From positions 37,018 to 101,017 of the forward strand of contig JAEUSU010000004.1 in assembly GCA_016788635.1 (NCBI GenBank): 64,000 nucleotides of DNA. Reading direction: 5' to 3'. The translations under genes were made by a program, and so were the position numbers. Shown piece by piece: positions 22,998 to 63,470 of the stretch. This stretch comes from Flavobacteriales bacterium. Lineage in GTDB: Bacteria; Bacteroidota; Bacteroidia; Flavobacteriales_F; PHOS-HE28. Within the stretch, counting starts at the first letter, position 1, and each line of letters opens with the position of its first letter. The notes beneath the pieces are model-generated. The model saw only the letters and a list, made by a program, of their open reading frames with translations. It was not told the DNA's origin and made no database searches.

Positions 22998-23063
22998 CCT
23001 TTTCGCGGGTGGCACATCCGCGAACGTGCTACATTTCAACCGTCCTTTTCCGCAGTACCCCAC

Positions 23064-23513
23064 ATGTTGCTTTTGAGACGCCGGATCCTGGTGCCCTGGC
23101 TGCTGGCCTCGGTGGTCATGTTCGGCCTGTCCTTTCTGTGGCACGGGGTCTTCCTGCGTGACCTGGTGATGGTGCGCCTGCCCATGGGGCTCTACTTCAC
23201 GTTGGCCGCCCTGGTGTACCTGTTGGTGGGCATGGGCATCACCCTGGCGGTGCATCAGGCCATTGTGCACGAGTGGATCAATCTCAAGCATGCCTTCCCC
23301 TTCATGAGCATGCTGGTGGGTGCCATCGTGGGCTTCATCGTGTTCCTCATCGTCTTCACGCTGGGCTTCAGTTTCACCAAGGACGGTATGGTGCACATGC
23401 TGGTGGACGTGCTCTGGCAGATGTTCGAGCAGGCCATGGGCGGCCTCATGGTCAGCCTCGGCATCATCTACGACCTGCACCGTTCCTTCCTGGAACAGGA
23501 GCGGGCGAAGTGA
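23064..23513 (+). CDS. Hypothetical integral membrane protein (149 aa, ~4 TM)
   Basis: Strongly hydrophobic translation (MLLLRRRILVPWLLASVVMFGLSF...), divergent from the lipoprotein gene. Confidence 0.45.
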   Translation: MLLLRRRILVPWLLASVVMFGLSFLWHGVFLRDLVMVRLPMGLYFTLAALVYLLVGMGITLAVHQAIVHEWINLKHAFPFMSMLVGAIVGFIVFLIVFTLGFSFTKDGMVHMLVDVLWQMFEQAMGGLMVSLGIIYDLHRSFLEQERAK

Positions 23514-23517
23514 TCGG

Positions 23518-39262: not shown

Positions 39263-39459
39263 GCGTCCGCAAAGGTAGCTGGGGACGTGGGGCCACGCGG
39301 CCGATCAGCCGGTCCACATAGAGGAGGAGGGTCGCCAGGTCCGGTGTATGGTACGGTGGAAGCCGCTTGCTATCTTGCTCCGGTCAGTAATGCCCGTACG
39401 ACGTGCATTTGCGCAAGCCGTACGACCGACAACGAACAACCGACAACTTCCACTCCCGC

Positions 39460-42156
39460 ATGAGGATCCTCGACCTGAAAGCCATGCGCGGCCCGAACCA
39501 CTGGTCCGTGCGCCGCCACAACCTCATCATCATGCGGCTGGACATCGGTGAGTTGGAGGAGCGCCCCACCGACAAGATCCCCGGTTTCCTGGACCGCATG
39601 AAGGCCCTGATGCCCTCCCTGCACAGCCACCGCTGCAGCGAAGGGCACGCCGGCGGTTTTTACGAACGGGTGGAGCGTGGCACCTGGATGGGCCACGTGA
39701 TCGAGCATTTCGCTTTGGAGATCCAGACCCTGGCTGGCATGGAGACCGGTTTCGGGCGCACCCGCAGCACCAGCGAACGCGGTGTGTACAACGTGGTCTT
39801 CAGCTACATCGAGGAGCCCGTGGGCCTCTATGCGGCCAAGGCGGCGGTACGCATAGCCGAATCGCTCATCGAAGGCAGGGAGGTGGATCTGGCAGCGGAC
39901 CTCCAGGCCATGCGCGAACTGCGCGAGGACAGCCGCCTGGGCCCCAGCACCGGCAGCATCGTGCAGGAGGCCGCAGCGCGCGGCATTCCCTACTTGCGCC
40001 TCAACGGCCAGAGCCTCGTGCAACTGGGCCATGGCATACACCAGAAACGCATCCGCGCCACCATCACCAGCCGCACCAGCAACATCGGGGTGGAGATCGC
40101 CTGCGACAAGGAGGAGACCAAGCAGCTGTTGGAGAGTTACGAGATCCCCGTGCCCAAGGGCCGTGTGGTGCGCACCGAGGAAGGGCTCATGGACGCGCTC
40201 AGCGTGGTGGGTTTCCCCTGCGTCATCAAACCCATCGGCGGCAACCATGGGCGCGGCGCCACCATCGGCATCAAAACGAAGGATGAGGCCATTGCGGCCC
40301 TGGCCAAGGCCAAGGAGATCAGCCGCAGCGTGATCGTGGAGCGCTACATCACCGGCCTGGACCACCGCCTGCTCGTCATCGACCACCAGTTCGTGGCCGC
40401 CGCCAAGCGCACCCCCGCCTGCGTGATCGGCGATGGCAAGCGCAGCATCCGCGCGCTCGTGGAGGAGGTGAACACCGACCCCCGCCGTGGTTACGGCCAT
40501 GAAAAGGTCCTCACCCGCATTGACATTGACGACCATACGGAGAAGCTGCTCGCCCGCCGCGACATGACGCCCGACAGCGTGCCGCCGAAGGACGAGGTGG
40601 TGTACCTGAAGGCCACGGCCAACCTCAGCACCGGTGGCACCGCCACCGACGTCACGGAGGTCGTGCACCCCTACAACGTCTTCATGGCCGAGCGCATCTC
40701 GCGCATCATCGACCTGGACATCTGCGGCATCGACATCATGACCGATGACATCACGCAGCCGCTTACCGAGACCGGTGGTGCCGTGCTGGAGGTGAACGCC
40801 GCGCCCGGCTTCCGCATGCACCTGGAGCCCACCGAGGGCATCGGGCGCAACGTGGCCGAACCCGTGGTGGACATGCTCTTCCCGCCCGGCGCGCCCAGCC
40901 GCATCCCCATCATCGCCGTCACCGGCACCAACGGAAAGACGACCACCACGCGCCTCACCGCGCACATCATGCGCAGCGTCAACTTCAAGGTGGGCATGAC
41001 CTGCAGTGATGGTGTGTACATCATGAACCGCATGCTGATGAAGGGCGACTGCACCGGCCCGGCCAGCGCGCAGTTCGTGCTGAAGGACCCGCTTGTGGAC
41101 ATGGCCGTGCTGGAGACCGCACGCGGCGGCATGCTGCGCAGTGGCCTCGGCTTCGAGCATTGCGACGTGGGCATCTGCACCAACGTGGCCGCCGACCACC
41201 TCGGCCTCAAGGACATCAACACCCTGGAGGAACTTGCACATGTGAAGAGCACCGTGCCCCGCAGCGTGCGCAAGGACGGCTACGCCATCCTCAACGCCGA
41301 CGATGACCTGGTTATGGCCATGCGCAAACAGTGCGATTGCAGGATCGCCCTTTTCAGCCTCGACGAGAACAACCGCCTCATCCGCCAGCACTGCAAGCTC
41401 GGCGGCCTCGCGGCCATCTATGAGAATGGCTTCATCACCATCAGCAAGGGCGAGTGGAAGCTGCGCATCGAGAAGGCGGTGAACGTGCCGCTCACTTACG
41501 GAGGCAAAGCGGTTTTCAATATCCAGAACATCCTGCCCGCCGTGCTGGCCGCCTACACCCAGGGTGTGAAGATCGAGGAGCTCCGCCAGGCGCTGATGAC
41601 CTTCGTGCCCTCACCGGCGCAAACGCCCGGCCGCCTCAACCTCTTCCAGTTCCGCAACTTCCAGGTGGTGGTGGACTATGCCCACAACCCGCATGGCTTC
41701 GAGGCCTTGGGCCGTTTCCTCAGCAAGGTTCCCGACACACCCAAGATCGGCGTCATCGCCGGCGTGGGCGACCGCCGCGACGAGGACACCGTGAACCTCG
41801 GCAAGCTCAGTGCCCGCATGTTCGACGAGATCATCATCCGCCAGGATCGCAACCTGCGCGGCAAGACCGACGACGAGATCATCGCGCTGCTGGTGAAGGG
41901 CATCCAGGAGGTGGACCCCAACAAGCCCTTCAAGATCATGAAGAAGGAGGACGAGGCCATCCGCCACGCCATCGGCACCGCGCCGAAAGGTGCCTTTGTG
42001 GTGCTCTGCAGCGATGTGGTGCCCGATGCCTTGGCGCTTGTCCTGAAGTTGAAGGAGGAGGATGAGCAGGTCAGCTTCAACAAGGAGGATATCCCGAATA
42101 GGAATAAGGAGTTGGTGGGAAGGGCAGAAGTGCCGGTGGAAGGGCATGGGCAGTGA
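39460..42156 (+). CDS. cphA: Cyanophycin synthetase
   Basis: N-terminal cyanophycin-synthetase domain (MRILDLKAMRGPNHWS...), central ATP-grasp, C-terminal Mur-ligase-like domain (VTGTNGKTTTT). Start at ATG 39460. Confidence 0.9.
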   Translation: MRILDLKAMRGPNHWSVRRHNLIIMRLDIGELEERPTDKIPGFLDRMKALMPSLHSHRCSEGHAGGFYERVERGTWMGHVIEHFALEIQTLAGMETGFGRTRSTSERGVYNVVFSYIEEPVGLYAAKAAVRIAESLIEGREVDLAADLQAMRELREDSRLGPSTGSIVQEAAARGIPYLRLNGQSLVQLGHGIHQKRIRATITSRTSNIGVEIACDKEETKQLLESYEIPVPKGRVVRTEEGLMDALSVVGFPCVIKPIGGNHGRGATIGIKTKDEAIAALAKAKEISRSVIVERYITGLDHRLLVIDHQFVAAAKRTPACVIGDGKRSIRALVEEVNTDPRRGYGHEKVLTRIDIDDHTEKLLARRDMTPDSVPPKDEVVYLKATANLSTGGTATDVTEVVHPYNVFMAERISRIIDLDICGIDIMTDDITQPLTETGGAVLEVNAAPGFRMHLEPTEGIGRNVAEPVVDMLFPPGAPSRIPIIAVTGTNGKTTTTRLTAHIMRSVNFKVGMTCSDGVYIMNRMLMKGDCTGPASAQFVLKDPLVDMAVLETARGGMLRSGLGFEHCDVGICTNVAADHLGLKDINTLEELAHVKSTVPRSVRKDGYAILNADDDLVMAMRKQCDCRIALFSLDENNRLIRQHCKLGGLAAIYENGFITISKGEWKLRIEKAVNVPLTYGGKAVFNIQNILPAVLAAYTQGVKIEELRQALMTFVPSPAQTPGRLNLFQFRNFQVVVDYAHNPHGFEALGRFLSKVPDTPKIGVIAGVGDRRDEDTVNLGKLSARMFDEIIIRQDRNLRGKTDDEIIALLVKGIQEVDPNKPFKIMKKEDEAIRHAIGTAPKGAFVVLCSDVVPDALALVLKLKEEDEQVSFNKEDIPNRNKELVGRAEVPVEGHGQ

Positions 42157-48760: not shown

Positions 48761-49273
48761 TCAGGGCCGTGCCTGAACAAGGCTGCCTTGACGGGCGCGG
48801 ATGTGGGTGGCGTAGACCGGGCTGGGCGCGTGCCCGCCGAATTCGGTGCTGTAGCGAATGATGGCGTTGGGGAAATCCTCGAAGAAGGGGTCTCCACCGG
48901 TGAGCGCGTTCTCCGGCTCCAGGTCCACCTGGCAGGGGAAGGCCGGATAACGGCCCACTTCCACAGGTACGTTGGTATCCACCAGGATGAGCTTGCTCTT
49001 GTAACCCGGTTTGCTGATCAGGAGCGCGTATTGGGTGCCCATATCCAGTTCCACTTGGAACCGGCCCTTTTGAATGGCGAAGGACGTGAGCTCGGTATTG
49101 TCCTTGAACACCTTCACCGTGATGTCGGTGGGCTTGGTGCGGCCATTGTCCACTTTCACCCGGCCATCCACGGGCATCACTGGCTTGGCAGGGCCCTTCT
49201 TGCCCTGTGCGCTAACGGTGGCCAGGAGGGCACCGATGAGGCTGAGGAACAGGAATGTGCGACGGAAGTTCAT
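48761..49273 (-). CDS. Secreted hypothetical protein with a carboxypeptidase-regulatory-like (transthyretin-like) beta-sandwich signature
   Basis: Signal peptide MNFRRTFLFLSLIGALLATVSAQ; DGRVKV…VKVF…GRFQVEL…YALLISKPGYKSK pattern. Confidence 0.45.
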   Translation of the reverse strand: MNFRRTFLFLSLIGALLATVSAQGKKGPAKPVMPVDGRVKVDNGRTKPTDITVKVFKDNTELTSFAIQKGRFQVELDMGTQYALLISKPGYKSKLILVDTNVPVEVGRYPAFPCQVDLEPENALTGGDPFFEDFPNAIIRYSTEFGGHAPSPVYATHIRARQGSLVQARP

Positions 49274-49345: not shown

Positions 49346-50875
49346 TCAGGAGGCCATGGGCAACTGCGCGGGCTGGCCCACATCGGGCAGCGTCATGGTG
49401 AAGCTGGCCCCACGCCCGGGTGCGCCTTCCGCAATGATGCTTCCCCCGTGTTTGGTGACGATGCGGTGAACGATGGCCAGGCCCACGCCCGTGCCCTCGA
49501 ACTGGTCCGCCCGGTGCAGCCGCTTGAAGACCCCGAAGATGTGACCACCGCGTTCGGCCTCGAAACCCACTCCGTTGTCCGTGACACGAATGACATGGCC
49601 ATCCGGGCTCCTTTCATGTGCGAGCCGGATCTGCGGTCGCTCCACGGTGCGGCTGTACTTCAACGCATTGCTGAGCAGGTTGCTCAACGCCACCTTCAGC
49701 ATGGCTTGATCACCGCTCACCTGTGTGCCAGGCGCGATGTTCAGTTCAACTTGTGCGCGGCGTTCGGCCGGCACCAGTTCCACCACGAGCTCGTTCACCA
49801 GCGTGTTCAGGTCCACCTGCACATGGTTCACCTCCTTGGCGTTGGTCTGGGAGAAGCGCAAGAGGTCGTCCACCAGTTGCAGCATGCGCTGAGAGCCGTT
49901 GTGGATGCGTTGTGCGATGTCCCTGCATTCCTGGATGTCGGTTGCGGTGGAAGCTGCTCCGGCAAGGTGCTCGCTCATGGCGGCGAGTGTCTTCAGCGGC
50001 GAGCGCAGGTCATGCGCCACCGAATAGGAGAAGGAGCCGAGGTCCTCAAGGGCTTCAAGCAGCTGCCTGGTGCGCACTGCCACGCGCCGGTCCAGGTCGG
50101 CGTTCAAGCGCCTCAACTGCAGCTCCTCCTGCTTGCGGTCCGAAATGTCCTTGATGATGGCTTGGTAGAGCCGGCGTCCCTCTCCGTCCACGCCAAGAGG
50201 GTTGGCGGTGAGAAGGCAATCGATGAGGCGGTCGTTGGTGCTTTTCAGTGTCAGGTCCACGTTCACGAAACCGCTTCCGTCGCGTTTGGCGCGTAGGGAG
50301 CGCAACAGCGCGGCGGGGTCCTCAATGCGGGTGCGCATGTCCGTACCGGCCGCCTGACCGGGGGGCAACCCCAGCAGTTTCTCCGCCGCTGCGTTGGCCT
50401 CCACCAGAACACCGCGGTCGGTAACAATGATGATCGGGTCGCCGCTGTTCTCAAATACCTGATGATAGCGCTGCAGCAGCAGCTCGCGCTCGTCGCGCAG
50501 GTTGTACACCTCAAAGGCCTGCTGCACGCGCAGCCGCAGATCGTTCGGATCCCAGGGTTTGGTGGCGTACGCGTAGATGCCGCCCTTGTTCACCGCCTCC
50601 ACCACAGCCTCCAGGTCGGCATAACCGGTAAGGAGCATGCGCATGATGCGCGGGTGGCGCTCGCGCACCTGGGCCAGCAGTTCGGAACCGGTGGTGCCGG
50701 GCATGCGCTGATCGCTGACCAGCACATGGACCGGATGTTGAGCAAGGATGTCGAGCGCTTCCTGGGCGGAAGAGGCCACGTGCACCTCCCATTCGCGGCG
50801 GTAGGTGGCCTTGAAGGCGGTGAGGTTGCCCGCCTCGTCATCGACGTACAGGACCTTGATGCGTTCGGTGCTCAT
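49346..50875 (-). CDS. Hybrid response-regulator receiver + PAS + histidine kinase (HisKA + HATPase_c)
   Basis: REC (VLYVDDE…SDQRMPGTTG…), PAS-like middle, H-box SVAHDLRSPL, N/G boxes (LLSNALKYS, GTGVGLAIV). Start ATG 50875, 5 nt after the stop of the upstream kinase. Confidence 0.85.
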   Translation of the reverse strand: MSTERIKVLYVDDEAGNLTAFKATYRREWEVHVASSAQEALDILAQHPVHVLVSDQRMPGTTGSELLAQVRERHPRIMRMLLTGYADLEAVVEAVNKGGIYAYATKPWDPNDLRLRVQQAFEVYNLRDERELLLQRYHQVFENSGDPIIIVTDRGVLVEANAAAEKLLGLPPGQAAGTDMRTRIEDPAALLRSLRAKRDGSGFVNVDLTLKSTNDRLIDCLLTANPLGVDGEGRRLYQAIIKDISDRKQEELQLRRLNADLDRRVAVRTRQLLEALEDLGSFSYSVAHDLRSPLKTLAAMSEHLAGAASTATDIQECRDIAQRIHNGSQRMLQLVDDLLRFSQTNAKEVNHVQVDLNTLVNELVVELVPAERRAQVELNIAPGTQVSGDQAMLKVALSNLLSNALKYSRTVERPQIRLAHERSPDGHVIRVTDNGVGFEAERGGHIFGVFKRLHRADQFEGTGVGLAIVHRIVTKHGGSIIAEGAPGRGASFTMTLPDVGQPAQLPMAS

Positions 50876-50880
50876 GGTAT

Positions 50881-53028
50881 TCAAGCGCGTTTGCGGGTCA
50901 TTTCAACGGCACGGATGGGCAGGATCAAACGGAACTCCGTGCCTTCGCCGGGCATGCTGTCCACCTCGATGCGGCCTCCGTGCTTTTCCATGATGCTGTA
51001 GGCGATGGAGAGGCCAAGGCCGGTGCCTTCACCCACGTCCTTGGTGGTGAAGAAGGGTTCGAAAATGCGTTGCTTGACATGCTCGGGCATGCCGGGGCCG
51101 TTGTCCTTGATCGCGATCACCGCGTCATCGCCCTGCGTGCAGGTGCGGATCACCACCCTGCCCTCTCCCGGGTTGGAATGGAACCGGGCGGCGACGGCCT
51201 GCACGGCATTGGTGAGCACGTTCATCACCACCTGGTTAAGCTTGCCTGGGTAGCATTCCACTTCGGGAAGGTCCCCGAAATCCAGTTGGATGTCGGCCCT
51301 GTCCCGCAATTGCGAACCCAGCACGGTGAGCGTGCTCCGGATGCCCTCGTGCAGATCGGCGTGCTTCAGGTCATCCTCATCCAAACGGCTGAAGTTGCGC
51401 AGGCCCCGCACGATGGCCGCCGTACGGCTGGCGCCCTCTTCAATGCTGTTCAGCATTTCCTTGATCTCCGCAATGCACACATCCACATCATACTGGCGCT
51501 CCACTTCGGCAATGGCCTTGATCTCCGGGGCGGTCAGCGTGTCCTGCAGGGACCTGTAGCGCAGCATGAGGTCCAGCATGTCCTCCAGGTTCCGGCGCAG
51601 GGGGGGGATGTTGCTGGAGATGAAGTTCACCGGGTTGTTGATCTCGTGGGCGATTCCGGCGGTGAGCTGACCGAGCGAGGCCATCTTCTCGGCGTTGACC
51701 AGTTGCGATTGGGTGCGCTTCAGGTGATCGTTGCTTTCACGCAGTTCAAGTGTGCGCTCGTTCACTTTCTGTTCCAACACCACGTTCTGTTCCCGGATCA
51801 TCTTCTCGTTCAACTGCGAGGCCAGCAGGGCGGCCGCCTGCGATTCCTCCTTCTCCCTGCGAAGGATGTTGATCTTGTCCGCCAGACCGAAGGAGAGCAG
51901 CACCACTTCCACGGCGGAACCCACGGGCATGGTGTATTTGGTGACGTCGTTGAAGGGGAGCAAGCCCCAGTCCTTGAGGACGAACATGGTGATGCCCACC
52001 AGGAACAAGCTCCACGCGATGAGGAAGAAGATGGCCGGACGGAAGCCCTTCCGCATGGTCTGGTACGCGCCCAACAGGATATAGGTGGCGAACGCTGCGG
52101 AGACCACCTGAACGGTCTTGTAGGCCTCAATGGCGAAACCCCCGAACTGAAGTGCCATGCCCAGGGCGAAGAGGACATAGAACAGCATGCGGGTGTTGTC
52201 GAAGCCGGGCAGGTATTGTGACGTTTGGAGAAAACGCCGCATGAACTCGCTGGCCGCGATGGCGGTCATGGCAGTGAACAGCAGCGATGCATGAGGGGCG
52301 AACCACGAGGCGTTCGGCCACAAATGGATGGGTCCGAAGCCGAGGAAGGTGAGCTGGGCCAGACAGACCAGCGCGATGTAAATGACGTACACCAGGTAGC
52401 TGCGATCACGGATCGAGAGGAACACGAAGAGGTTGTACAGCATCATCACCAGCATGATGCCGATGTATCCTCCGGTGAAGAGGTTCCTCATGTGCTGCCC
52501 CTTCACCAAGTGGGCCTTGGTATGCAGGCTCAGCGGAAGCTGCAGTTGTTTGGCACTGCGCACACGCAGGAAGATGCTGGCGCGTCCTCCGGGGGGTATG
52601 GGAATGCCGTAGGAGAGGTCGCCACCGGAGCGTGCCAGCTGATCGGAGGGGCGCTTGAGCCCCGCACTGGCCAGCTTCAGGCGTATGTCCCCGCTGACCA
52701 GGTGGATGTCCAGTTCATCGATCTCGGGGTTGCCCACGAGCAGGTAAAGCATGTCCTCGCGGCTAAGCTGTTCCACATCCAGGCGCACCCAATGCCAATG
52801 GTCGCTAAGGCCCAGGTTGGGCACCCCCTTGGTAACCTGTTCCCAGCCCGGCGCGCGCAGGACATCCTCCAGTTCCATTGCCCCGGTTGGGTCGGTAAGG
52901 ACGGACAGGTGATGACCGAGCGGTCCGCTGTCCGGTTCCCCTCGGTAGGGGTATGCGCTTCCCTGTAGCGCGCTCGCCTGGGCAAGTGCAAGAAGAATGA
53001 ATGAGGCGGTGACGCGCCAGCGCAACAT
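50881..53028 (-). CDS. 7TMR-DISM sensor histidine kinase (periplasmic 7TMR-DISMED2 + 7TM + HisKA + HATPase_c)
   Basis: Signal peptide; extracytoplasmic domain; seven hydrophobic segments (GGYIGIMLVMMLYNLFVF…); H-box AGIAHEINNPVNF; G-box GEGTGLGLSIAYSI. Confidence 0.85.
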   Translation of the reverse strand: MLRWRVTASFILLALAQASALQGSAYPYRGEPDSGPLGHHLSVLTDPTGAMELEDVLRAPGWEQVTKGVPNLGLSDHWHWVRLDVEQLSREDMLYLLVGNPEIDELDIHLVSGDIRLKLASAGLKRPSDQLARSGGDLSYGIPIPPGGRASIFLRVRSAKQLQLPLSLHTKAHLVKGQHMRNLFTGGYIGIMLVMMLYNLFVFLSIRDRSYLVYVIYIALVCLAQLTFLGFGPIHLWPNASWFAPHASLLFTAMTAIAASEFMRRFLQTSQYLPGFDNTRMLFYVLFALGMALQFGGFAIEAYKTVQVVSAAFATYILLGAYQTMRKGFRPAIFFLIAWSLFLVGITMFVLKDWGLLPFNDVTKYTMPVGSAVEVVLLSFGLADKINILRREKEESQAAALLASQLNEKMIREQNVVLEQKVNERTLELRESNDHLKRTQSQLVNAEKMASLGQLTAGIAHEINNPVNFISSNIPPLRRNLEDMLDLMLRYRSLQDTLTAPEIKAIAEVERQYDVDVCIAEIKEMLNSIEEGASRTAAIVRGLRNFSRLDEDDLKHADLHEGIRSTLTVLGSQLRDRADIQLDFGDLPEVECYPGKLNQVVMNVLTNAVQAVAARFHSNPGEGRVVIRTCTQGDDAVIAIKDNGPGMPEHVKQRIFEPFFTTKDVGEGTGLGLSIAYSIMEKHGGRIEVDSMPGEGTEFRLILPIRAVEMTRKRA

Positions 53029-53071: not shown

Positions 53072-53830
53072 TCAGGCGCTGAAAAGCTGGTACTGTTCCT
53101 CCACCGGCCGGTAGTCCTCCAGGTCGATCAGGCTGCCGTGGAATTTCATCCGGTAGGTCACCTCCAGGTTGTGCTTGCCAGGCCGCTCCAAGCGTGTCTG
53201 GTCGGGCCTTAGGCGCAGGCTGTATACGAGGTGCCGCTGGTCCTGTGAAGCGTGTTCAAGCATCAGTGTGTCCGGATTCACCATGGCCACTGCGGTGATC
53301 GAGGGAATGGGATAGATGAAGGTCCCTTTCTCGCCCACGGCATCCAGCACCACGAACCCGTTGCGACTGGGGTGTCGTTGGGTATACGTGGCCACCAGGC
53401 ACACCATTCGCTGCGCACCTACCATGACAGATAGCGCCGTGACCGCCTGGCTCAGCAGGACCGGGACGCCGTGCATGGCGTACCGATTCGCGTTCCACAG
53501 GCCGCAAACCTCGCCATTCCCATAGGGCTCGAGCACCTTGAGGTGGTCGTGGATGCTGGGGTCGAGCTTGCGCAGGGCCAGTTCCATGGGAAGGCCCCTT
53601 CCGGGCCTTGCCATCTCTAATCGGATGCCGCCCACCATGCCCAAGGTCTCGTGCAGCGCAACGATCACATAGGTCCCGGGGTCGCGCGTCCATTCATCGT
53701 TGTTGGTGGTCACATTGGATATACCGTAATCCTCGAGCACTTTACGGTGTTCACGAAGGAACTCGCGGCACAATTCAGGTTCGCGTGGGGCTTGGAACGC
53801 CCTGAGGGTGATCCGGTCGGGTCGTTCCAT
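53072..53830 (-). CDS. Uncharacterised 252-aa protein, translationally coupled to the upstream E1-SagB fusion gene; weak resemblance to GNAT-fold / autoinducer-synthase-like N-acyltransferases
   Basis: No signal peptide. Spacing of conserved blocks (…YVIVALHETLGMVGGIRL…, …GEVCGLWNANRYAMHG…) is loosely like the LuxI/FeeM fold; this is an inference only. Its start lies 4 nt after the stop of the 776-aa gene. Confidence 0.45.
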   Translation of the reverse strand: MERPDRITLRAFQAPREPELCREFLREHRKVLEDYGISNVTTNNDEWTRDPGTYVIVALHETLGMVGGIRLEMARPGRGLPMELALRKLDPSIHDHLKVLEPYGNGEVCGLWNANRYAMHGVPVLLSQAVTALSVMVGAQRMVCLVATYTQRHPSRNGFVVLDAVGEKGTFIYPIPSITAVAMVNPDTLMLEHASQDQRHLVYSLRLRPDQTRLERPGKHNLEVTYRMKFHGSLIDLEDYRPVEEQYQLFSA

Positions 53831-53833
53831 GGG

Positions 53834-56164
53834 TCAGGCGTGAAGGGGTTGGGGCTTGTACACCATATCCTGAAGGGGACGGCGCAGGGCACGGGCGCTG
53901 GGAGGCCCAGCCTGGCTGAGCCGCATCATGAACAAGGGCCTGCCGGGCCGGGTGGAGAGCAGGTGGTCAAAGCGGACCTTCAGGCGCTCCATTTCGAGCA
54001 TGAGCTGCGGCTCCAGATCAGCCACCCAGGGAATGGCATGGAATAGAAAGATCGGTGCGCTGATGGGGTGAACAGCCCAGCCCAGGCGGTTGGCTTCCAT
54101 CCATGCGCGTTGGGCGGCGCGCCCCCCCTGAAGCCGCTGGGCAAGGGAGTCTCCAGCGCCGCAGACCAGCATGACCGCCGCACTGTTCACGATGCCGGAA
54201 TGTGCGAATCGTTCCAAGCCGCGTCCTGCGTCCCAATCGCGCAGCAGGGCCATGGCACGCGCGTCAGACCCCATGCGCAGGGCGGCCGCTGCGGTGGGGG
54301 ATACCTCCATGGTGGCCAGGTCCAGGCCATCCGCGGTACGCGCGGCTTCCTCCGGGGTCCAGCGCACCTCGGCGGCAAAAAACTCGTGATGTCCCACCGG
54401 GTCCAGTACGCGCACACGCTCGGCCCCACCACAGATACCCGCCAACTCGTTCAGGTCGGCTTGGGAAGTAAACATGTGAAGGTGGCAATCCGGCACGGCC
54501 TGCACTGCGCGGTGCAATGCCTCGACCATGTCGGCGGGTAGCGGCGTGCGCGTGGCGACCTTGCGGTTGGTGCAGCGTTGTGTGATCCAGTCTGCCAGCG
54601 GATCAACAGCCGGTGGTTGGCCGGTGGCAGAAGGGACCAGCAGGGCCGTAAGCGCAGGACGGTCGGGCAGGGGATGGTGAACGATGTCCAACGCTACCCC
54701 CATCGCACCCGCTCTCAGGCGCATGTTCTCCAATGCGGTGCCCAAGGCGATCTGCGCGATCAGGTGGTCCGGGTCCCAACGGGAAGCCGAACGGGCCGCA
54801 TCATGGAAGAGCAGCAGCAAGCCCTCGTGCAGCATGAAACGCCAGGGCTGCATGTTGCCTGCGGAAGGGGCCAGCGCGCCGGCTTCGAAAATGCGCATGG
54901 CCTGGGCCGTGTCCAAGTGCGGGTAAGCTTTATGGTGCGCGGTGGCCTCTTGCGCACAGCGTTCCATGAACTCGGTCGTGAGCGGAGGAACGGATCGGTG
55001 TTCTACGGATTTGACCGCCACTTGCTCTTCGCCGAAGTGGTCGTTCAGGTCCACATACCAGCGGCCTGAGGTGCGGAATTGATCCAGGGCGATCCTCCGG
55101 CACACCTCGGCCACCAAGGCGCCGCCCAACATGACCGCACTCCCCAACTGAGGCCATGTGCTTACCGATCGTCCCAATTCAAGCACCGATGCTTTGAGTC
55201 GCGGGCTCAGTGTGTCCGTGCCTACGATGGGCACCATGTAAGGCACCTTTTCCTCACTGGTCATTTTCCGGCCCGCAGCGGCCAGGTCCAGGTGGTCTAT
55301 CCAGCCGTGCAGGATGGGGCGTCCCGGCTCCAGGTCGAAACGCTCCACGTCCACGCACCCGCGATCGCTCATGTCCATCACCACGGGGATGCGCATGGCC
55401 TTGGCCTTCTGCCGCGCGAGGATCTTGATGTCCACACTGTCGCACTCCTCCACCAGCAGGTCAAGCGGACCACCTTCCTCAAAGAACTGGTCCAGGTTGT
55501 GCTGGGTGATGCCTTCCGTGAAGCAGGTCACCTGCAAGTAGGGGTCCAATTCAGCGATCTGCCGCGCACAACTGATGGCTTTGTTCAAACCCAGCTCATG
55601 CACCCCGCCCGCAAGCCGGTTCAGGTTGCTGAGGTCAAGTCCATCGAAGTCAGCAAGGCGCAATTCGGCGAAGCCGCGTTCCAAGGCCAGGGTGATGGCC
55701 GCAGACCGCCCTACCGACAGCCCAATGATGCCGATCCGTAGTTGCCCCAGGCGTTCCTGCTCGGCGCGCGTGATCTTGTTCCTGTTGCGGTCGGTGCGCA
55801 CCCTGGCGAATTCCTCTTCATCGAGGAGATGCACCAACACATTGCGCCAGGGATAATGCACCCATGTGCCGTAGTCCTCCATGGGAACGCCGGCCAGATG
55901 CCGCTGCACCTCCTGGTCCAATTCGGCGGCGGAGAACGTGCGGTCGGGCCGCAGGGAGCGGATCAATTCCTTCAACTGATCATCCAGCGTATCCAGCTGG
56001 GTGATCCCGCGTGCCCTGAGCACGTGCAACGCCTCGCGGTCCGCTTCCAAGCGCGGGCGAAGGATCAGGGGGCGGTGGCCGGTGGTGTTGTTGGGTGGCG
56101 GGTGGAGCGGTCCGCCGGTGGGTCGGGTCATTGTGGGTGCCCCGAATATCATGCAGTTGAGCAA
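53834..56164 (-). CDS. Fusion protein: N-terminal E1-like/ThiF-type adenylyltransferase-fold domain + C-terminal SagB/McbC-type (nitroreductase superfamily, FMN) dehydrogenase domain (Rv1355c-like architecture)
   Basis: ThiF-like region with IGIIGLSVGRS (degenerate Gly-rich loop) and the E1 hallmark LRLADFDGLDLSNLNR; C-terminal nitroreductase-like blocks (SAGNMQPWRF…, …AGICGGAERVRV…). 776 aa; exact start uncertain. Confidence 0.75.
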   Translation of the reverse strand: MLNCMIFGAPTMTRPTGGPLHPPPNNTTGHRPLILRPRLEADREALHVLRARGITQLDTLDDQLKELIRSLRPDRTFSAAELDQEVQRHLAGVPMEDYGTWVHYPWRNVLVHLLDEEEFARVRTDRNRNKITRAEQERLGQLRIGIIGLSVGRSAAITLALERGFAELRLADFDGLDLSNLNRLAGGVHELGLNKAISCARQIAELDPYLQVTCFTEGITQHNLDQFFEEGGPLDLLVEECDSVDIKILARQKAKAMRIPVVMDMSDRGCVDVERFDLEPGRPILHGWIDHLDLAAAGRKMTSEEKVPYMVPIVGTDTLSPRLKASVLELGRSVSTWPQLGSAVMLGGALVAEVCRRIALDQFRTSGRWYVDLNDHFGEEQVAVKSVEHRSVPPLTTEFMERCAQEATAHHKAYPHLDTAQAMRIFEAGALAPSAGNMQPWRFMLHEGLLLLFHDAARSASRWDPDHLIAQIALGTALENMRLRAGAMGVALDIVHHPLPDRPALTALLVPSATGQPPAVDPLADWITQRCTNRKVATRTPLPADMVEALHRAVQAVPDCHLHMFTSQADLNELAGICGGAERVRVLDPVGHHEFFAAEVRWTPEEAARTADGLDLATMEVSPTAAAALRMGSDARAMALLRDWDAGRGLERFAHSGIVNSAAVMLVCGAGDSLAQRLQGGRAAQRAWMEANRLGWAVHPISAPIFLFHAIPWVADLEPQLMLEMERLKVRFDHLLSTRPGRPLFMMRLSQAGPPSARALRRPLQDMVYKPQPLHA

Positions 56165-56266
56165 TACCGGTCAAGTTCCCTGCGCGGTCTTTTGTTAACA
56201 GTCGGCGGCACGAAACCCCAACCATTCGTCCGCGTATGAGGCCGGTAACGCCGCTTTGGCGAACCC

Positions 56267-56752
56267 ATGCACACCATGCTCAGCGCCCCCCGCAACCTGT
56301 TGCCTTGCGTGCTTTTCGTGGACGACGAGCCCACGAACCGCATGACCTTTCGCGCAGCATTCCGACGCCAGTTCCGTGTGTTGCTAGCCGGCACACCCGA
56401 AGAGGCGTTCGATCATTTGAACTCCAGCGAGGTGGATGTGGTGATCAGCGACCAGCGCATGCCCGGCACGGTCGGCAGCGAGTTCCTGGCCCAGGTGAGG
56501 CAGCGCTTCCCCAAGGTGCGCCGCATGTTGGTCACCGCCTACAGTGACCTCCAGGCCTTGGTGGATGCGGTGAACAGGGCCGGTGTCTCACAATACATCC
56601 AGAAGCCCTGGGACGCGGGCCAGCTGGCAGAGGCTGTTCGCCAGGCGCACCAGGACCGTGTTCGCGAAGTGGAGCAGGATGCCCAGGTGACCTACCTGGC
56701 CGAGTTGAACCAGCAGCTTGAGTTCGCCTTGCGGCAGCGCCTGCTTTCCTGA
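56267..56752 (+). CDS. Stand-alone response-regulator receiver (CheY-like) protein
   Basis: VLFVDDE…DVVISDQRMPGTVGSEFL…YIQKPW; paralogous to the REC domain of the hybrid kinase at 49346-50875. Confidence 0.8.
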   Translation: MHTMLSAPRNLLPCVLFVDDEPTNRMTFRAAFRRQFRVLLAGTPEEAFDHLNSSEVDVVISDQRMPGTVGSEFLAQVRQRFPKVRRMLVTAYSDLQALVDAVNRAGVSQYIQKPWDAGQLAEAVRQAHQDRVREVEQDAQVTYLAELNQQLEFALRQRLLS

Positions 56753-61113: not shown

Positions 61114-61167
61114 TCCCCGGCTGCGAACTTCCCCCGTTCCAAGGCCACGGTTGAACTAAAAAAACAC

Positions 61168-62724
61168 GTGGAAATGGAGACCATTGAACCCATGGGACTG
61201 CTCCTGGGAGCGCTTGCCGGCCTGGTGCTGGGAGGCGGTCTGGTGTATGCCCTGCTGAACAGTCTGTTGAAGAGGCGCCGCGAGAGCGCCCTGCGCGAGG
61301 CAGAGGCCGAAGGAGAGGCCCTGAAAAAGGAGAAACTGGTGCAGGCCAAGGAGAAATTCCTGCAACTGAAGGAAGAGCACGAGAAGGAGGTGCGCGAGCG
61401 AGATCGCAAGATCCAGCAGGGTCAGGAGCGCATCAAACAGCGCGAGCAGCAGCTGGCCCGCCAGCAGCAGGACCTGGCTAACAAGGAGAAGCAGATCGAC
61501 AACCTGAAACGTGACCTGGAGCAGAAACTCGAGGGCATGGAGCGCCGCCGTGAGGAGATGGAGAAGGCGCACCAGAAACAGGTGGGTGTCCTGGAGAAGC
61601 TCAGCGGCCTCAATGCGGAGGATGCCAGGAAACAACTGGTGGAATCGCTGAAGGACGAAGCCCGCACCGCGGCCATGGCCCACATCAAGGAGGCGCAGGA
61701 GGATGCGAAGCTCACGGCCAACAAGGAAGCCAAACGCATCGTCATCCAGACCATCCAGCGGGTGGCCACCGAGCATGCGATCGAGAACGCCGTAAGTGTG
61801 TTCCACATCGAGAACGACGATGTGAAGGGCCGCATCATCGGGCGCGAAGGCCGGAACATCCGCACCCTGGAGGAGGCCACCGGAGTGGAGATCGTGGTGG
61901 ACGACACCCCCGGAGCCATCATCCTGAGCTGCTTCGACCCTGTGCGCCGGGAGATGGCGCGTCTGGCCCTGCACCAGCTGGTGAAGGACGGCCGCATCCA
62001 CCCCGGGCGCATTGAAGAGATCGTGGCCAAGACCAAGCGCCACCTTGAGGAGGAGATCATTGAGACCGGCAAGCGCACCTGCATCGACCTGGGCATCCAC
62101 GGGCTGCACACCGAGCTCATCCGCATGGTGGGCCGCATGAAGTACCGCAGCAGCTATGGGCAGAACCTGCTGCAGCACAGCCGCGAGGTGGCCAACCTCA
62201 GCGCCATCATGGCCGCCGAGCTGGGCCTGAACACCAAGACCGCGAAACGCGCCGGCCTGCTGCACGACATTGGCAAGGTGCCCGATGAAGAGCCCGAACT
62301 GCCGCATGCCCTGCTGGGCATGAAGCTGGCGGAAAAGTTCGGGGAGAAGCCCGATGTGTGCAACGCCATCGGTGCCCACCACGACGAGATCGAGATGACC
62401 ACGCTGCTGAGCCCGATCGTGCAGGCCTGCGATGCGATCAGTGGTGCCCGGCCCGGCGCTCGGCGCGAGGCGGTAGAGGCGTACATCCAGCGCCTGAAGG
62501 ATCTGGAAGGCATGGCCATGAGCTACAACGGTGTCACCAAGGCCTTCGCCATCCAGGCTGGGCGCGAACTGCGCGTGATGGTGGAGAGCGAGAAGATCAC
62601 CGACCAGCAGGCCGATGAGATGAGCATCAGCCTGGCGGAGCGCATCCAGAACGAGATGACCTACCCCGGACAGGTGAAGATCACCGTGATCCGTGAGAAA
62701 CGGTCCGTGGCGGTGGCCAAGTGA
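61168..62724 (+). CDS. rny: Ribonuclease Y
   Basis: N-terminal TM helix, long coiled coil, KH domain ([15 protein letters not shown]), HD domain ([13 protein letters not shown]…LLHDIGK). Confidence 0.95.
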
Positions 62725-62752
62725 TGCATAGGACCTGAATTGGAAAGGGACA

Positions 62753-62780
62753 GGGGCGGCGGTTAGCCGCCCCTTTCTTT
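62753..62780 (+). terminator. Intrinsic terminator after rny
   Basis: GGGGCGGC-ggtta-GCCGCCCC followed by TTTCTTT. Confidence 0.75.
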
Positions 62781-62786
62781 GTGCCC

Positions 62787-63470
62787 ATGCCCCAAACACA
62801 AATGCCTGCTCTGCGCGACGTGTTGCAATGGGAGGTGCGCACCTGGTCGCGCGCATTGCCCCTGTGGGCCCGGGACTTGCCTGCGCAGCGCCCTTTGAAG
62901 GCCTTGGCAGTCGGGGAGCGGGAGGGGGGGCTGGCCCTATGGCTGGCCGCGCAGGGGGTCGATGTCACTTGCACCGACCTGAACCCATTCCCAGCGGCCA
63001 TGCGTGCGCTCCACGAACGCTACAAGCTCTCTGAACGCATCACCTACGCACAGGCGGATGTCACGGCATTGGAGTTCCCCAGCGGGACCTTCGATGTGGT
63101 GGTATTCAAGAGCGTGATCGGTGCCCTGGGTTCGAAAGAGCGCCAGGCCGTGGCGATAAAGGAGACGCAGCGGGTGCTCCGCCCAGGGGGAGTGTTGCTT
63201 TTCGCCGAGAATCTCTCCGGGTCTTCGTTGCATGGCTATTTGAGGAAGCGTTTCGTACGCTGGGCCACCTATTGGCGCTACCTCTGCTGGCCTGAGGATG
63301 CCGACCTGTTCTCGTCCTTTTCCCGCGTGGAAGTGGCACGCACCGGCTTGCTCGCCCCCTTCGGCCGCAGCGAATGGCAGCGTGATCTGCTCGCCCGGCT
63401 GGATCGGCTTCTGGAGCTGGTCACACCCGCCGCTTGGCGGACCGTGCTGTATGGTGTGTGCACCAAGTAG
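62787..63470 (+). CDS. Class I SAM-dependent methyltransferase
   Basis: Methyltransferase motif I-like LAVGEREGGLALWLAAQG and post-I/II spacing (DVVVFKSVIG…LRPGGVLLF). ORF-track start is GTG 62781; ATG 62787 chosen. Confidence 0.7.
   Translation: MPQTQMPALRDVLQWEVRTWSRALPLWARDLPAQRPLKALAVGEREGGLALWLAAQGVDVTCTDLNPFPAAMRALHERYKLSERITYAQADVTALEFPSGTFDVVVFKSVIGALGSKERQAVAIKETQRVLRPGGVLLFAENLSGSSLHGYLRKRFVRWATYWRYLCWPEDADLFSSFSRVEVARTGLLAPFGRSEWQRDLLARLDRLLELVTPAAWRTVLYGVCTK

What the first reader, a model, noticed from the sequence alone, without database searches (positions are those of the whole stretch)
53072..56164. Orphan E1-like (ThiF) + SagB-type nitroreductase fusion protein coupled to an uncharacterised 252-aa partner, with no YcaO and no visible precursor peptide
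The 776-aa protein joins an E1/ThiF adenylyltransferase-fold domain to an FMN nitroreductase-superfamily SagB/McbC-type dehydrogenase-like domain. The E1 hallmark DFDGLDLSNLNR is present, but the Gly-rich nucleotide loop is degenerate (GLSVGRS). Such E1-like and SagB-like domains are established components of thiazole/oxazole peptide (TOMM) and related RiPP machineries and of Rv1355c-like proteins of unknown function. Here there is no YcaO cyclodehydratase and no small precursor ORF nearby. Instead the gene is translationally coupled (4-nt spacing) to a 252-aa protein with no assignable family, which may be a GNAT or autoinducer-synthase-like acyltransferase. That combination is not a described pathway and is the best candidate in this window for an uncharacterised peptide or small-molecule modification system.
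Basis: partly seen in the sequence, partly recalled or inferred. Interest (0 to 1): 0.8.

Follow-up and report, generated by a model that had tools for sequence, protein, structure and literature searches.

The report
Acyl-oxazolone genes wired to sensor kinase
The two genes are a Bacteroidota version of the recently described TrzA/TrzS (OxzA/OxzB) pathway that turns an amino acid into an N-acyl oxazolone, so the chemistry is already known; what is new is that across Bacteroidota the pair sits in a fixed cassette with a membrane sensor kinase, which hints that these molecules are signals.

Summary
A 776-codon ORF (probable start M12, 765 aa) encodes a ThiF/E1-like domain fused to an FMN nitroreductase-superfamily domain. 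It lies 3 nt upstream of a 252-aa gene with no Pfam or NCBIfam family.

The claim that this is not a described pathway is wrong. The fusion scores 751 bits against the NCBIfam equivalog 'Rv1355c family protein' (cut-off 476). Rv1355c is TrzS, shown in 2025 to be an ATP-dependent cyclase plus O2/FMN-dependent desaturase that makes N-acyl tryptazolones. OxzB (2021) and TyzB/TyzC (2023) are related enzymes.

The undescribed part is the context. In 74 of 74 genome loci and 49 of 50 metagenome loci with enough flank, the acyltransferase gene lies beside a 7TMR-DISM histidine kinase. A receiver-kinase hybrid and a divergent receiver gene usually accompany it. The tailoring enzyme varies: ThiF-oxidase, ThiF only, ICMT-like or class I methyltransferase, or none. 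This suggests a signal synthase and receptor module, which remains untested.

The parts
53834..56164 (-). [quoted passage not shown] The ORF runs from TTG at 56164; the probable start is ATG at 56131, giving 765 aa.
   Evidence: NCBIfam NF005901 'Rv1355c family protein' equivalog, 751.2 bits against a cut-off of 476, covering residues 26-767. Pfam ThiF plus Nitroreductase. It is 35-38% identical over about 94% of its length to actinobacterial Rv1355c-family proteins. The AF2 model has pLDDT 84.
55040..56077 (-). N-terminal half (residues ~30-375 of the 776-codon frame): an N-terminal extension plus the ThiF/E1-like adenylating domain. Pfam ThiF covers residues 125-262, which is nt 55379-55792.
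   Evidence: The motifs GLSVG, ADFD, SNLNR, NK, EECD, SDRG and TWPQL are invariant between the window protein and actinobacterial Rv1355c-family proteins. Foldseek hits AclA, PaaA and E. coli ThiF 1zfn. This half alone is retained in 13 of 80 genome loci.
53864..54919 (-). C-terminal half (residues ~416-767): single-chain, Acg-like flavin-dependent oxidase of the nitroreductase superfamily.
   Evidence: phmmer hit to 2ymv Acg nitroreductase over residues 416-703. NCBIfam Acg family NF047509, 132.6 bits. Foldseek top hit 2ymv, E 6.3e-14, TM (target) 0.73. PSxGNxQPW, RxTxR and further Arg, His and Trp residues are invariant.
53072..53830 (-). trzA/oxzA-like N-acyl amino acid synthase (GNAT fold), 252 aa.
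50881..53028 (-). Sensor histidine kinase: 7TMR-DISMED2 extracellular domain, 7TMR-DISM seven-helix membrane domain, HisKA-like H-box and HATPase. It starts 43 nt downstream of the acyltransferase gene.
   Evidence: Pfam. An orthologue lies next to the GNAT or tailoring gene in 74 of 74 genome loci and 49 of 50 metagenome loci with enough flank.
49346..50884 (-). Hybrid receiver-PAS-HisKA-HATPase protein. Its start overlaps the stop of the kinase gene by 4 nt.
   Evidence: Pfam. It is conserved downstream of the kinase in most loci. In Sphingobacteriales, Chitinophagales and similar groups it lacks the PAS domain and is about 361-372 aa.
56267..56752 (+). Single-domain response regulator (receiver only), transcribed divergently from the trzS-like gene.
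   Evidence: Pfam Response_reg, E 3.9e-22. It is present and divergent in most loci; some Pedobacter genomes have two copies.
56132..56266 (.). Divergent intergenic region between the receiver gene and the trzS-like gene. It presumably carries both promoters.
   Evidence: Read directly. The sigma-70-type scan found no more sites than chance, and Bacteroidota promoters are not covered by that scan. Its function is inferred.

Best explanation
The two genes are a Bacteroidota orthologue pair of the TrzA/TrzS (OxzA/OxzB, TyzA/B/C) N-acyl-oxazolone pathway.

Proposed steps: (1) The 252-aa GNAT enzyme N-acylates a free L-amino acid with an acyl-CoA (or acyl-ACP), giving an N-acyl amino acid. In characterised homologues the amino acid is aromatic. 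(2) The ThiF-like domain of the fusion adenylates the carboxylate with ATP. The amide oxygen then attacks and closes a 5(4H)-oxazolone ring. (3) The C-terminal FMN-dependent oxidase domain uses O2 to desaturate C-alpha/C-beta, giving the conjugated 4-ylidene-oxazolone. These steps have been shown experimentally only for homologues. Here they are inferred from homology. The identity of the amino acid and of the acyl chain is unknown.

The pair is the first half of a probable four-gene operon: trzS-like, trzA-like, 7TMR-DISM histidine kinase and receiver-PAS-kinase hybrid. A receiver gene is transcribed divergently. This cassette is conserved across Bacteroidota, so the product is functionally tied to that phosphorelay. 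It is most likely either the ligand the kinase senses or the output the relay controls. Which of the two applies is not established.
For: Fusion protein:
- It meets the NCBIfam equivalog for the Rv1355c family: 751 bits against a cut-off of 476, end to end.
- Rv1355c is TrzS. Its chemistry was shown with ATP and O2 omission and with the D217A and R540A variants (PMC12856293). Related enzymes are OxzB and TyzB/TyzC.
- The domain order and all conserved ThiF and oxidase motifs are shared with actinobacterial members.
- Foldseek on the AF2 model gives Acg 2ymv first and then ThiF-like enzymes. TrzS was compared with the same structures, 2YMV and 1ZFN.

Partner protein:
- Its fold is closest to FeeM and to AHL synthases, which are the same nearest structures reported for TyzA.
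- Its family profile matches the proteins encoded beside Rv1355c-family genes in Nocardia, Rhodococcus and Gordonia at 98.2%, E 3.3e-14.
- One of these, in N. seriolae, has the gene order trzA-like, ThiF-NTR (715 aa), GAF-GGDEF-EAL (623 aa). That matches the Mtb arrangement: Rv1356c in an operon with Rv1355c, next to the c-di-GMP turnover gene rv1354c.

Pairing and cassette:
- The pair is adjacent in 78 of 80 genome loci spanning Flavobacteriales, Sphingobacteriales, Chitinophagales and Cytophagales. Both gene orders occur.
- The kinase is adjacent in 74 of 74 and 49 of 50 loci with enough flank.
- Flanking genes differ completely between lineages.
Against: No enzyme of this Bacteroidota clade has been assayed.
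- Identity to actinobacterial Rv1355c-family proteins is only 35-38%. The acyltransferase is related only at profile level (17% identity).
- No Pfam or NCBIfam model covers the acyltransferase.
- I could not obtain the M. smegmatis or M. tuberculosis sequences, so the exact equivalents of D217, R540 and Q651 are not mapped.
- About one locus in six lacks the oxidase half. In others the whole fusion is replaced by a methyltransferase or is absent. The oxazolone is therefore not the obligatory end product of the cassette family.
- Conserved adjacency does not show which way information flows between the metabolite and the kinase.
Confidence: 0.8

Rival explanations
1. Signal and receptor reading. 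The GNAT enzyme and its tailoring enzyme make a neutral N-acyl-amino-acid derivative. This acts as a diffusible autoinducer-like signal and is sensed by the co-encoded 7TMR-DISM kinase. This is a more specific version of the best explanation, not a contradiction of it.
For: The invariant core of the cassette is GNAT, 7TMR-DISM kinase, receiver-kinase and receiver. The tailoring slot varies: ThiF-oxidase, ThiF only, ICMT-like methyltransferase, class I methyltransferase or none. ThiF acts on the carboxylate, and ICMT-family enzymes typically methylate carboxylates. Swapping of tailoring enzymes around a fixed synthase and receptor is typical of signal diversification. ThiF-only and methyltransferase variants fall in several separate branches of the GNAT tree. 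The fold is AHL-synthase-like. The authors of the oxazolone papers already note the resemblance to AHLs, the lability in water and the adjacent c-di-GMP genes in Actinomycetota. No DNA-binding regulator is encoded in the cassette.
Against: The evidence is purely comparative. No ligand is known for this kinase. The extracellular 7TMR-DISMED2 domain is usually described as carbohydrate-binding-like (my own knowledge). In Actinomycetota tryptazolones were mainly intracellular. De Rond et al. saw no phenotype when they added oxazolones to cultures.
Confidence: 0.35
2. Output reading. The two-component system senses an envelope or environmental cue. It controls synthesis of an N-acyl-amino-acid-derived lipid or stress metabolite, either through expression or through direct binding of the single-domain receiver to the enzymes. 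The metabolite is the effector and not the signal.
For: Conserved co-localisation is equally compatible with this reading. The receivers have no output domain. Oxazolone production in Proteobacteria is induced by antibiotics, and tyz mutants of M. tuberculosis are sensitive to oxidative stress. N-acyl amino acids are known membrane lipids in Bacteroidota.
Against: Short-chain or cyclised products are poor membrane lipids. This reading does not explain why the tailoring enzyme is so variable while the kinase stays fixed. No transcription factor is encoded in the cassette.
Confidence: 0.35
3. One reading: a RiPP or TOMM-like peptide-modifying system, with an E1-like docking or adenylating domain and a SagB/McbC dehydrogenase, acting on an unseen precursor peptide.
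For: ThiF-like and nitroreductase-superfamily domains do occur in such systems. PaaA appears among the weak hits.
Against: No YcaO was found in the window ORFs scanned. No SagB-type or TOMM docking model hit at E<=1. The protein is an equivalog-level member of the TrzS family, which acts on free N-acyl amino acids. The conserved partner is an N-acyltransferase and not a peptide.
Confidence: 0.03
4. A conventional MoeB/ThiF/MoeZ sulfur-carrier-activating enzyme for molybdopterin or thiamine biosynthesis.
For: The historical annotation of Rv1355c is 'MoeY' (my own knowledge). Weak hits to MoeB and ThiF models occur.
Against: All MoeB, ThiF and MoeZ models score far below their cut-offs, for example 63.7 against 159 and 48.2 against 266. 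There is no rhodanese domain and no ThiS or MoaD-like neighbour. The experimentally shown function of the family is different.
Confidence: 0.02

Closest known systems
TrzA/TrzS (Rv1356c/Rv1355c) N-acyl tryptazolone pathway of Mycobacterium tuberculosis, M. smegmatis and Rhodococcus jostii RHA1 (Kleetz et al., J Biol Chem 2025, PMC12856293)
   Same: The two-gene logic is the same: a FeeM-like N-acyltransferase plus a single polypeptide with an N-terminal ThiF-like cyclase and a C-terminal Acg-like flavin-dependent oxidase. The fusion is an equivalog-level family match. The motifs are shared. The acyltransferases are profile-homologous. Signalling genes are adjacent in both phyla.
   Different: The phylum is Bacteroidota rather than Actinomycetota. 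Identity is 35-38%. In this window the order is trzS then trzA, whereas the actinobacterial loci have trzA upstream or divergent. The neighbours are a 7TMR-DISM histidine kinase, a receiver-kinase hybrid and a receiver, instead of GGDEF/EAL proteins. The substrate amino acid and acyl chain are unknown. The clade has not been studied experimentally.
OxzA/OxzB oxazolone synthetase of Pseudoalteromonas rubra and other Proteobacteria (de Rond, Asay and Moore; bioRxiv 10.1101/2020.06.11.147165)
   Same: An N-acyltransferase plus a ThiF-nitroreductase di-domain enzyme. The products are N-acyl tyrosine- or phenylalanine-derived oxazolones. The reaction depends on ATP.
   Different: OxzB falls in a different oxidase subcluster (FDO-A8) from Rv1355c (FDO-A4). 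The window protein matches the Rv1355c model. The other ThiF-nitroreductase models, PRK14851 and PRK14852, score far below their cut-offs. Whether either of those models corresponds to OxzB was not tested.
TyzA/TyzB/TyzC tyrazolone pathway of M. tuberculosis (Grigg et al., J Biol Chem 2023, PMC10404671)
   Same: The three chemical steps are the same. TyzA's nearest structures are FeeM and an AHL synthase, as for the 252-aa protein here.
   Different: The cyclase and the oxidase are separate proteins in Tyz. The ThiF-only variants of the Bacteroidota cassette resemble TyzB, but no TyzC-like gene lies nearby.
LuxI/LuxR-type and LuxM/LuxN-type acyl-homoserine-lactone systems (synthase gene next to receptor gene)
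   Different: There is no sequence-level membership: neither Pfam nor NCBIfam returns any AHL-synthase model for the 252-aa protein. The predicted acceptor is a proteinogenic amino acid and not SAM. The receptor is a 7TMR-DISM kinase. No signalling activity has been shown.
FeeM and other N-acyl amino acid synthases (NAS, NasY)
   Different: Identity is 14%. The Pfam FeeM model is not matched by the window protein; one distant family member reaches only a sub-threshold score. A C-terminal extension of about 60 residues is absent from FeeM.

Membership tests
TrzS / Rv1355c family (ThiF-like cyclase fused to flavin-dependent oxidase) | Full-length match to the curated family model above its cut-off | tested here: met
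   NF005901 equivalog, 751.2 bits against 476. Residues 26-767 align to profile positions 7-717 of 722.
TrzS / Rv1355c family | N-terminal ThiF/E1-like domain with the adenylation-site residues conserved | tested here: met
   GLSVG, ADFD, SNLNR, K184, EECD and SDRG are invariant in an alignment with five actinobacterial and eight Bacteroidota members.
TrzS / Rv1355c family | C-terminal single-chain Acg-like FMN oxidase domain | tested here: met
   Sequence hit to 2ymv. Foldseek top hit 2ymv, E 6.3e-14, TMt 0.73. PSxGNxQPW and RxTxR are invariant.
TrzS / Rv1355c family | Adjacent gene for a TrzA/OxzA-like N-acyltransferase | tested here: met
   The spacer is 3 nt in the window. The two genes are adjacent in 78 of 80 genome loci. 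Profile homology to trzA-position proteins is 98.2%.
TrzS / Rv1355c family | ATP-dependent cyclisation and O2/FMN-dependent desaturation of an N-acyl amino acid to an oxazolone | not testable with these tools
   Shown only for TrzS(Msmeg), OxzB and TyzB/TyzC.
TrzA / OxzA / TyzA N-acyl amino acid synthases | GNAT fold of the FeeM/AHL-synthase type | tested here: met
TrzA / OxzA / TyzA N-acyl amino acid synthases | Sequence homology to proteins at the trzA position in Actinomycetota | tested here: met
   hmmsearch E 1e-8 to 6e-6. hhalign 96.4% and 98.2%, E 3.3e-14 with a 26-sequence profile. Synteny check in N. seriolae. Rv1356c itself was not among the sequences retrieved.
TrzA / OxzA / TyzA N-acyl amino acid synthases | Acyl-CoA-dependent N-acylation of an (aromatic) L-amino acid | not testable with these tools
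   Biochemistry exists only for TrzA(Mtb), TyzA and OxzA.
TOMM / azoline RiPP machinery (YcaO, E1-like partner, SagB/McbC dehydrogenase) | YcaO cyclodehydratase in the cluster | tested here: not met
   No YcaO domain was found in the cassette, its neighbours or the other large ORFs of the window, or in the loci annotated by the collection.
TOMM / azoline RiPP machinery | SagB-type dehydrogenase or TOMM docking-domain model match | tested here: not met
   Neither appears among the 21 NCBIfam families listed at E<=1.
MoeB / ThiF / MoeZ sulfur-carrier E1 enzymes | Score above the equivalog cut-off, and a ThiS/MoaD or rhodanese partner | tested here: not met
   The best ThiF model scores 63.7 against 159, MoeB 48.2 against 266 and MoeZ 30.6 against 647. 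No such partner is present in the neighbourhood.
LuxI-type AHL synthases | Match to an autoinducer-synthase sequence family | tested here: not met
   No Pfam or NCBIfam hit of that kind. The resemblance is at fold level only.
Signal synthase and cognate receptor cassette (functional class) | Synthase gene conserved next to a sensor gene across distant lineages | tested here: met
   A 7TMR-DISM kinase is adjacent in 74 of 74 genome loci and 49 of 50 metagenome loci with room. GNAT identity falls to 32-33%. Gene order is rearranged and the flanks differ.
Signal synthase and cognate receptor cassette (functional class) | The product is released and elicits a kinase-dependent response | not testable with these tools
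   No experiment exists for this clade.

The most novel reading that the evidence does not exclude
Many Bacteroidota carry a modular, autoinducer-like signalling system: at least 543 species genomes by one strict motif scan, spanning at least four orders. A TrzA-like GNAT makes an N-acyl amino acid. An interchangeable enzyme then modifies it, probably capping its carboxylate: ThiF cyclase with or without the oxidase gives an oxazolone, and an ICMT-like or class I methyltransferase would give a methyl ester. The co-encoded 7TMR-DISM histidine kinase, receiver-kinase hybrid and receiver relay would sense the resulting neutral molecule. This would give N-acyl oxazolones their first physiological role. 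It would also give Bacteroidota a dedicated synthase and receptor pair.
Probability: 0.35. Interest if true: 0.85.

Novelty: new variant of a known kind. Interest (0 to 1): 0.55.

Why it matters
The chemistry is known, so as a 'new pathway' the finding is explained. Two things remain of value.

First, N-acyl oxazolone or N-acyl dehydro-amino-acid producers have been reported only from Pseudomonadota, Actinomycetota and Planctomycetota. This locus and its hundreds of relatives extend the pathway to Bacteroidota. They include cultured strains such as Pedobacter steynii DSM 19110, P. duraquae DSM 19034, Daejeonella oryzae DSM 19973 and Parapedobacter luteus DSM 22899.

Second, the physiological role of oxazolones is stated to be the major open question. 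Here the biosynthetic genes are hard-wired to a sensor kinase, and the tailoring enzyme is swapped around a constant synthase and kinase core. That turns the 'are they signals?' question into a direct experiment on a defined receptor candidate.

Tried and rejected
Searches and jobs that failed or gave nothing:
- A 61-sequence family alignment (A2) was too diverse for the search for related loci. I replaced it with A3.
- I could not retrieve the M. tuberculosis or M. smegmatis TrzA and TrzS sequences. Word-index searches returned only Flavobacteriales for the fusion and Nocardia, Rhodococcus, Gordonia and Williamsia for the acyltransferase. The residues D217, R540 and Q651 therefore could not be mapped exactly.
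- P0486 was not on record.
- The promoter and terminator scan was not above chance and does not model Bacteroidota promoters.

Leads that went nowhere:
- The contexts of the TIR- and LRR-fused family members were short or uninformative.
- The mycobacterial plasmid loci L087, L091 and L093 carry an Rv1355c-family gene without a detectable trzA-like neighbour. They have a P450, TetR and dienelactone hydrolase instead. The pairing is therefore not universal.
- The M1 peptidase, the 170-aa secreted protein and the paa genes next to the cassette are syntenic only within the closest Flavobacteriales. They are not part of the module.

Readings considered and rejected: RiPP/TOMM, MoeB-like, and a true LuxI family member (see rivals and membership tests).

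Full report
**What is in the sequence**

On the minus strand, an ORF of 776 codons runs from a TTG at 56164 to 53834. It is followed after TGA-ccc by the ATG of a 252-aa ORF at 53830-53072. The identical protein in NCBI is annotated from the ATG at residue 12 and has 765 aa (P0270). Pfam finds ThiF at residues 125-262 and the start of a Nitroreductase domain at 417-445. The 252-aa protein matches no Pfam family, no meaningful NCBIfam family and no PDB sequence. The only corrections are the spacer, which is 3 nt and not 4, and the likely start codon.

**What the fusion is**

NCBIfam places it in the equivalog 'Rv1355c family protein' (NF005901). The score is 751 bits against a cut-off of 476, aligned end to end. 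All MoeB, ThiF and MoeZ models score far below their cut-offs. No SagB-type or TOMM docking model appears at E<=1.

The C-terminal half matches the Acg family and the structure 2ymv. An AlphaFold2 model (pLDDT 84) gives 2ymv as the top Foldseek hit (E 6e-14). ThiF-like enzymes follow: AclA, PaaA and E. coli ThiF 1zfn.

A literature search for Rv1355c found three linked studies:
- OxzA/OxzB of Pseudoalteromonas rubra make N-acyl tyrazolones (de Rond et al., bioRxiv 10.1101/2020.06.11.147165).
- TyzA/TyzB/TyzC of M. tuberculosis do the same (Grigg et al. 2023, PMC10404671). That paper already named Rv1355c-Rv1356c as an oxzAB-like cluster.
- Rv1356c and Rv1355c are TrzA and TrzS (Kleetz et al. 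2025, PMC12856293). TrzA N-acylates L-tryptophan with short acyl-CoAs. TrzS contains FMN. [quoted passage not shown]

The statement that the combination 'is not a described pathway' is therefore wrong.

**Is the window protein a competent family member?**

tblastn against plasmids found actinobacterial 'Rv1355c family' genes at 35-38% identity over about 94% of the length. I aligned the window protein with five actinobacterial and eight Bacteroidota proteins. The following are invariant:
- in the ThiF half: GLSVG, ADFD, SNLNR, the Lys of NK, EECD, SDRG and TWPQL;
- in the oxidase half: PSxGNxQPW, RxTxR and further Arg, His and Trp residues.

The 'degenerate' glycine loop is thus the family's normal form, and the characterised member is ATP-dependent. 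I could not obtain the M. smegmatis sequence, so the residues mutated by Kleetz et al. are not mapped one to one.

**What the 252-aa protein is**

A word-index search found 137 relatives, all from Flavobacteriales or otherwise unclassified Bacteroidetes MAGs. An exhaustive profile search found 574 clusters at 50% identity, mostly 225-260 aa.

ORFs next to Rv1355c-family genes in Nocardia farcinica and in Rhodococcus plasmids hit the family HMM (E 1e-8 to 6e-6). A 26-sequence profile of that actinobacterial family aligns to the Bacteroidota profile with 98.2% probability, E 3.3e-14, over 184 columns.

In N. seriolae the order is trzA-like (249 aa), ThiF-NTR (715 aa), GAF-GGDEF-EAL (623 aa). This matches the Rv1356c-Rv1355c operon of M. 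tuberculosis with the c-di-GMP turnover gene rv1354c beside it. The partner is therefore a distant TrzA/OxzA homologue.

**Most likely mechanism**

The steps are inferred by homology. They have been shown only for homologues.
1. The GNAT enzyme joins an acyl-CoA to an L-amino acid, giving an N-acyl amino acid.
2. The ThiF domain adenylates the carboxylate, and the amide oxygen closes a 5(4H)-oxazolone ring.
3. The FMN oxidase domain uses O2 to introduce the C-alpha/C-beta double bond.

The amino acid and the acyl chain cannot be predicted from these data. A YcaO enzyme or a precursor peptide is neither needed nor present.

**The surroundings, which are the new part**

Downstream on the same strand lie two more genes:
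- a 715-aa histidine kinase with 7TMR-DISMED2 and 7TMR-DISM_7TM domains (50881-53028, 43 nt after the acyltransferase gene);
- a receiver-PAS-HisKA-HATPase hybrid (49346-50884, overlapping the kinase stop by 4 nt).

Upstream and divergent is a receiver-only gene (56267-56752).

This five-gene arrangement recurs in every relative first examined. A scan of one genome per species found 543 loci with the strict motif GE[VIL]CGLWN[SA]. The best 80 come from Flavobacteriales, Sphingobacteriales (Pedobacter, Mucilaginibacter, Daejeonella, Parapedobacter, Hufsiella), Chitinophagales and Cytophagales, with acyltransferase identity down to 32-33%.

Scoring their ORFs with the window's proteins gave these results:
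- The fusion gene is adjacent in 78 of 80 loci.
- The kinase is adjacent in all 74 loci with enough flank.
- The receiver-kinase hybrid and the divergent receiver are present in most.
- In the Mucilaginibacter branch and its relatives the order is acyltransferase then fusion.
- The flanking genes are unrelated between lineages: T9SS cargo and OmpA in Pedobacter, against M1 peptidase and paa genes here.

The cassette is therefore a discrete, co-inherited module.

**The tailoring enzyme is the variable element**

In the 80 genome loci:
- 13 loci keep only the ThiF half, about 370-400 aa. They include the isolates Daejeonella oryzae DSM 19973 and Parapedobacter luteus DSM 22899.
- 2 loci replace the fusion with a class I SAM methyltransferase.

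More distant family members have acyltransferase, ICMT/PEMT-family methyltransferase, 7TMR-DISM kinase and receiver-kinase.

A metagenome scan centred on that branch returned 80 loci. The kinase was adjacent in 49 of the 50 loci with room. Among the 45 loci where both sides were visible, the tailoring slot held an ICMT-like gene in 23, ThiF only in 10, ThiF-oxidase in 5 and nothing in 7. The one exception, L180, has VWA and AAA genes instead of the kinase.

On a neighbour-joining tree of the acyltransferases, the ThiF-only and methyltransferase variants fall in several separate places. The tree is rough.

The constant core is thus acyltransferase, sensor kinase and relay. The variable part is an enzyme that in the best-understood cases acts on a carboxylate: ThiF by adenylation, and the ICMT family by carboxyl methylation.

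**Interpretation of the coupling**

The pattern is what one expects of a signal synthase and receptor module with diversifying signal chemistry. It parallels the GGDEF/EAL genes beside trzAS in Actinomycetota.

It is equally compatible with the relay controlling production of the metabolite. The receivers have no output domain, and oxazolones are induced by stress in other phyla. I give the two readings about equal weight. Neither is shown.

None of the oxazolone papers, the ThiF review or the N-acyl tyrosine paper mentions histidine kinases or two-component systems, and none reports the pathway in Bacteroidota. Searches for 7TMR-DISMED2 and for related terms found nothing on this link.

**Verdict**

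The finding is real, but its headline claim of an undescribed pathway is superseded by work from 2021-2025. It is a Bacteroidota member of the TrzAS/OxzAB N-acyl-oxazolone system. The acyltransferase is a divergent homologue that no curated model covers.

The added value is the conserved wiring to a 7TMR-DISM phosphorelay and the modular tailoring slot. Together these offer a concrete and testable handle on the open question of what oxazolones are for. I rate it a new variant of a known kind, with interest 0.55.

Noticed in passing
L086:10789-11553 (Hufsiella ginkgonis HMF7056) and L080:10725-11564 (Mucilaginibacter MAG): The ThiF-oxidase gene is replaced by a 254-aa class I SAM methyltransferase lying between the trzA-like gene and the 7TMR-DISM kinase.
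   Followed up: partly
L098:7743-8387 and L100:1431-2072; 23 of the loci L101-L180: A distant branch of the acyltransferase family is followed by an ICMT/PEMT-family membrane methyltransferase and then by the same kinase and receiver-kinase. This is the commonest arrangement in the metagenome sample. It suggests N-acyl amino acid methyl esters as products.
   Followed up: partly
L012, L013, L021, L022, L025, L031, L041, L054, L063, L064, L073, L082, L085: The oxidase half of the fusion is cleanly absent, leaving a ThiF-only protein of about 370-400 aa. This occurs in several separate branches and includes the isolates Daejeonella oryzae DSM 19973 and Parapedobacter luteus DSM 22899. No separate oxidase gene lies within 10 kb.
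   Followed up: partly
P0233 (570 aa), P0209 (662 aa), P0123 (479 aa): Some members of the acyltransferase family are fused to an N-terminal TIR domain or to leucine-rich repeats, or are duplicated in tandem. The TIR and LRR versions are not next to a kinase on the short contigs available. The LRR one follows a VWA gene.
   Followed up: partly
L180:8865-11488: This is the one cassette without the kinase. After receiver, ThiF-only and acyltransferase come a VWA-domain protein and a MoxR-like AAA ATPase.
   Followed up: no
L089 (Streptomyces sp. NBC_01471 plasmid) and hits H13-H15: Streptomyces and Kitasatospora plasmids carry ThiF-only homologues. Over their shorter aligned regions, these are more similar to the window's N-terminal half (44-49% identity, matched stretches lying within residues 7-403) than mycobacterial full-length proteins are over theirs. 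In the one locus examined the neighbour is a 211-aa 'GNAT family protein' that does not match the trzA-like profile.
   Followed up: no
L087, L091, L093 (Mycolicibacterium and Mycobacterium plasmids): Rv1355c-family genes occur here without a detectable trzA-like neighbour. They lie beside a cytochrome P450, a TetR regulator and a dienelactone hydrolase.
   Followed up: no
L088 and L092 (Rhodococcus plasmids); L097 (Nocardia seriolae chromosome): GGDEF or GAF-GGDEF-EAL genes lie directly beside the trzA/trzS-like genes. This extends to plasmids and to Nocardia the c-di-GMP link noted for M. tuberculosis.
   Followed up: partly
window 39403-42156 (+): A 917-aa cyanophycin synthetase-like protein (Cyanophycin_syn, ATP-grasp and Mur ligase domains) is encoded in this Flavobacteriales MAG.
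   Followed up: no
window 9217-12795 (-), 21330-23567 (-), 61156-62856 (-): Three large ORFs of 1192, 745 and 566 aa have no Pfam domain at the thresholds used (E<=1e-5 for the first two, E<=1e-3 for the third).
   Followed up: no
window 48761-49273 (-): A 170-aa protein with a hydrophobic N-terminus resembling a signal peptide and no Pfam family lies directly downstream of the cassette. It is conserved there in most of the close Flavobacteriales relatives examined and is not found in other orders.
   Followed up: partly
PDB 9egb (Foldseek hit to the ThiF half): The second-best structural match is AclA from Tenacibaculum discolor, a ThiF-like enzyme from another member of the Bacteroidota solved with its substrate in 2025. 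I did not look into its function.
   Followed up: no
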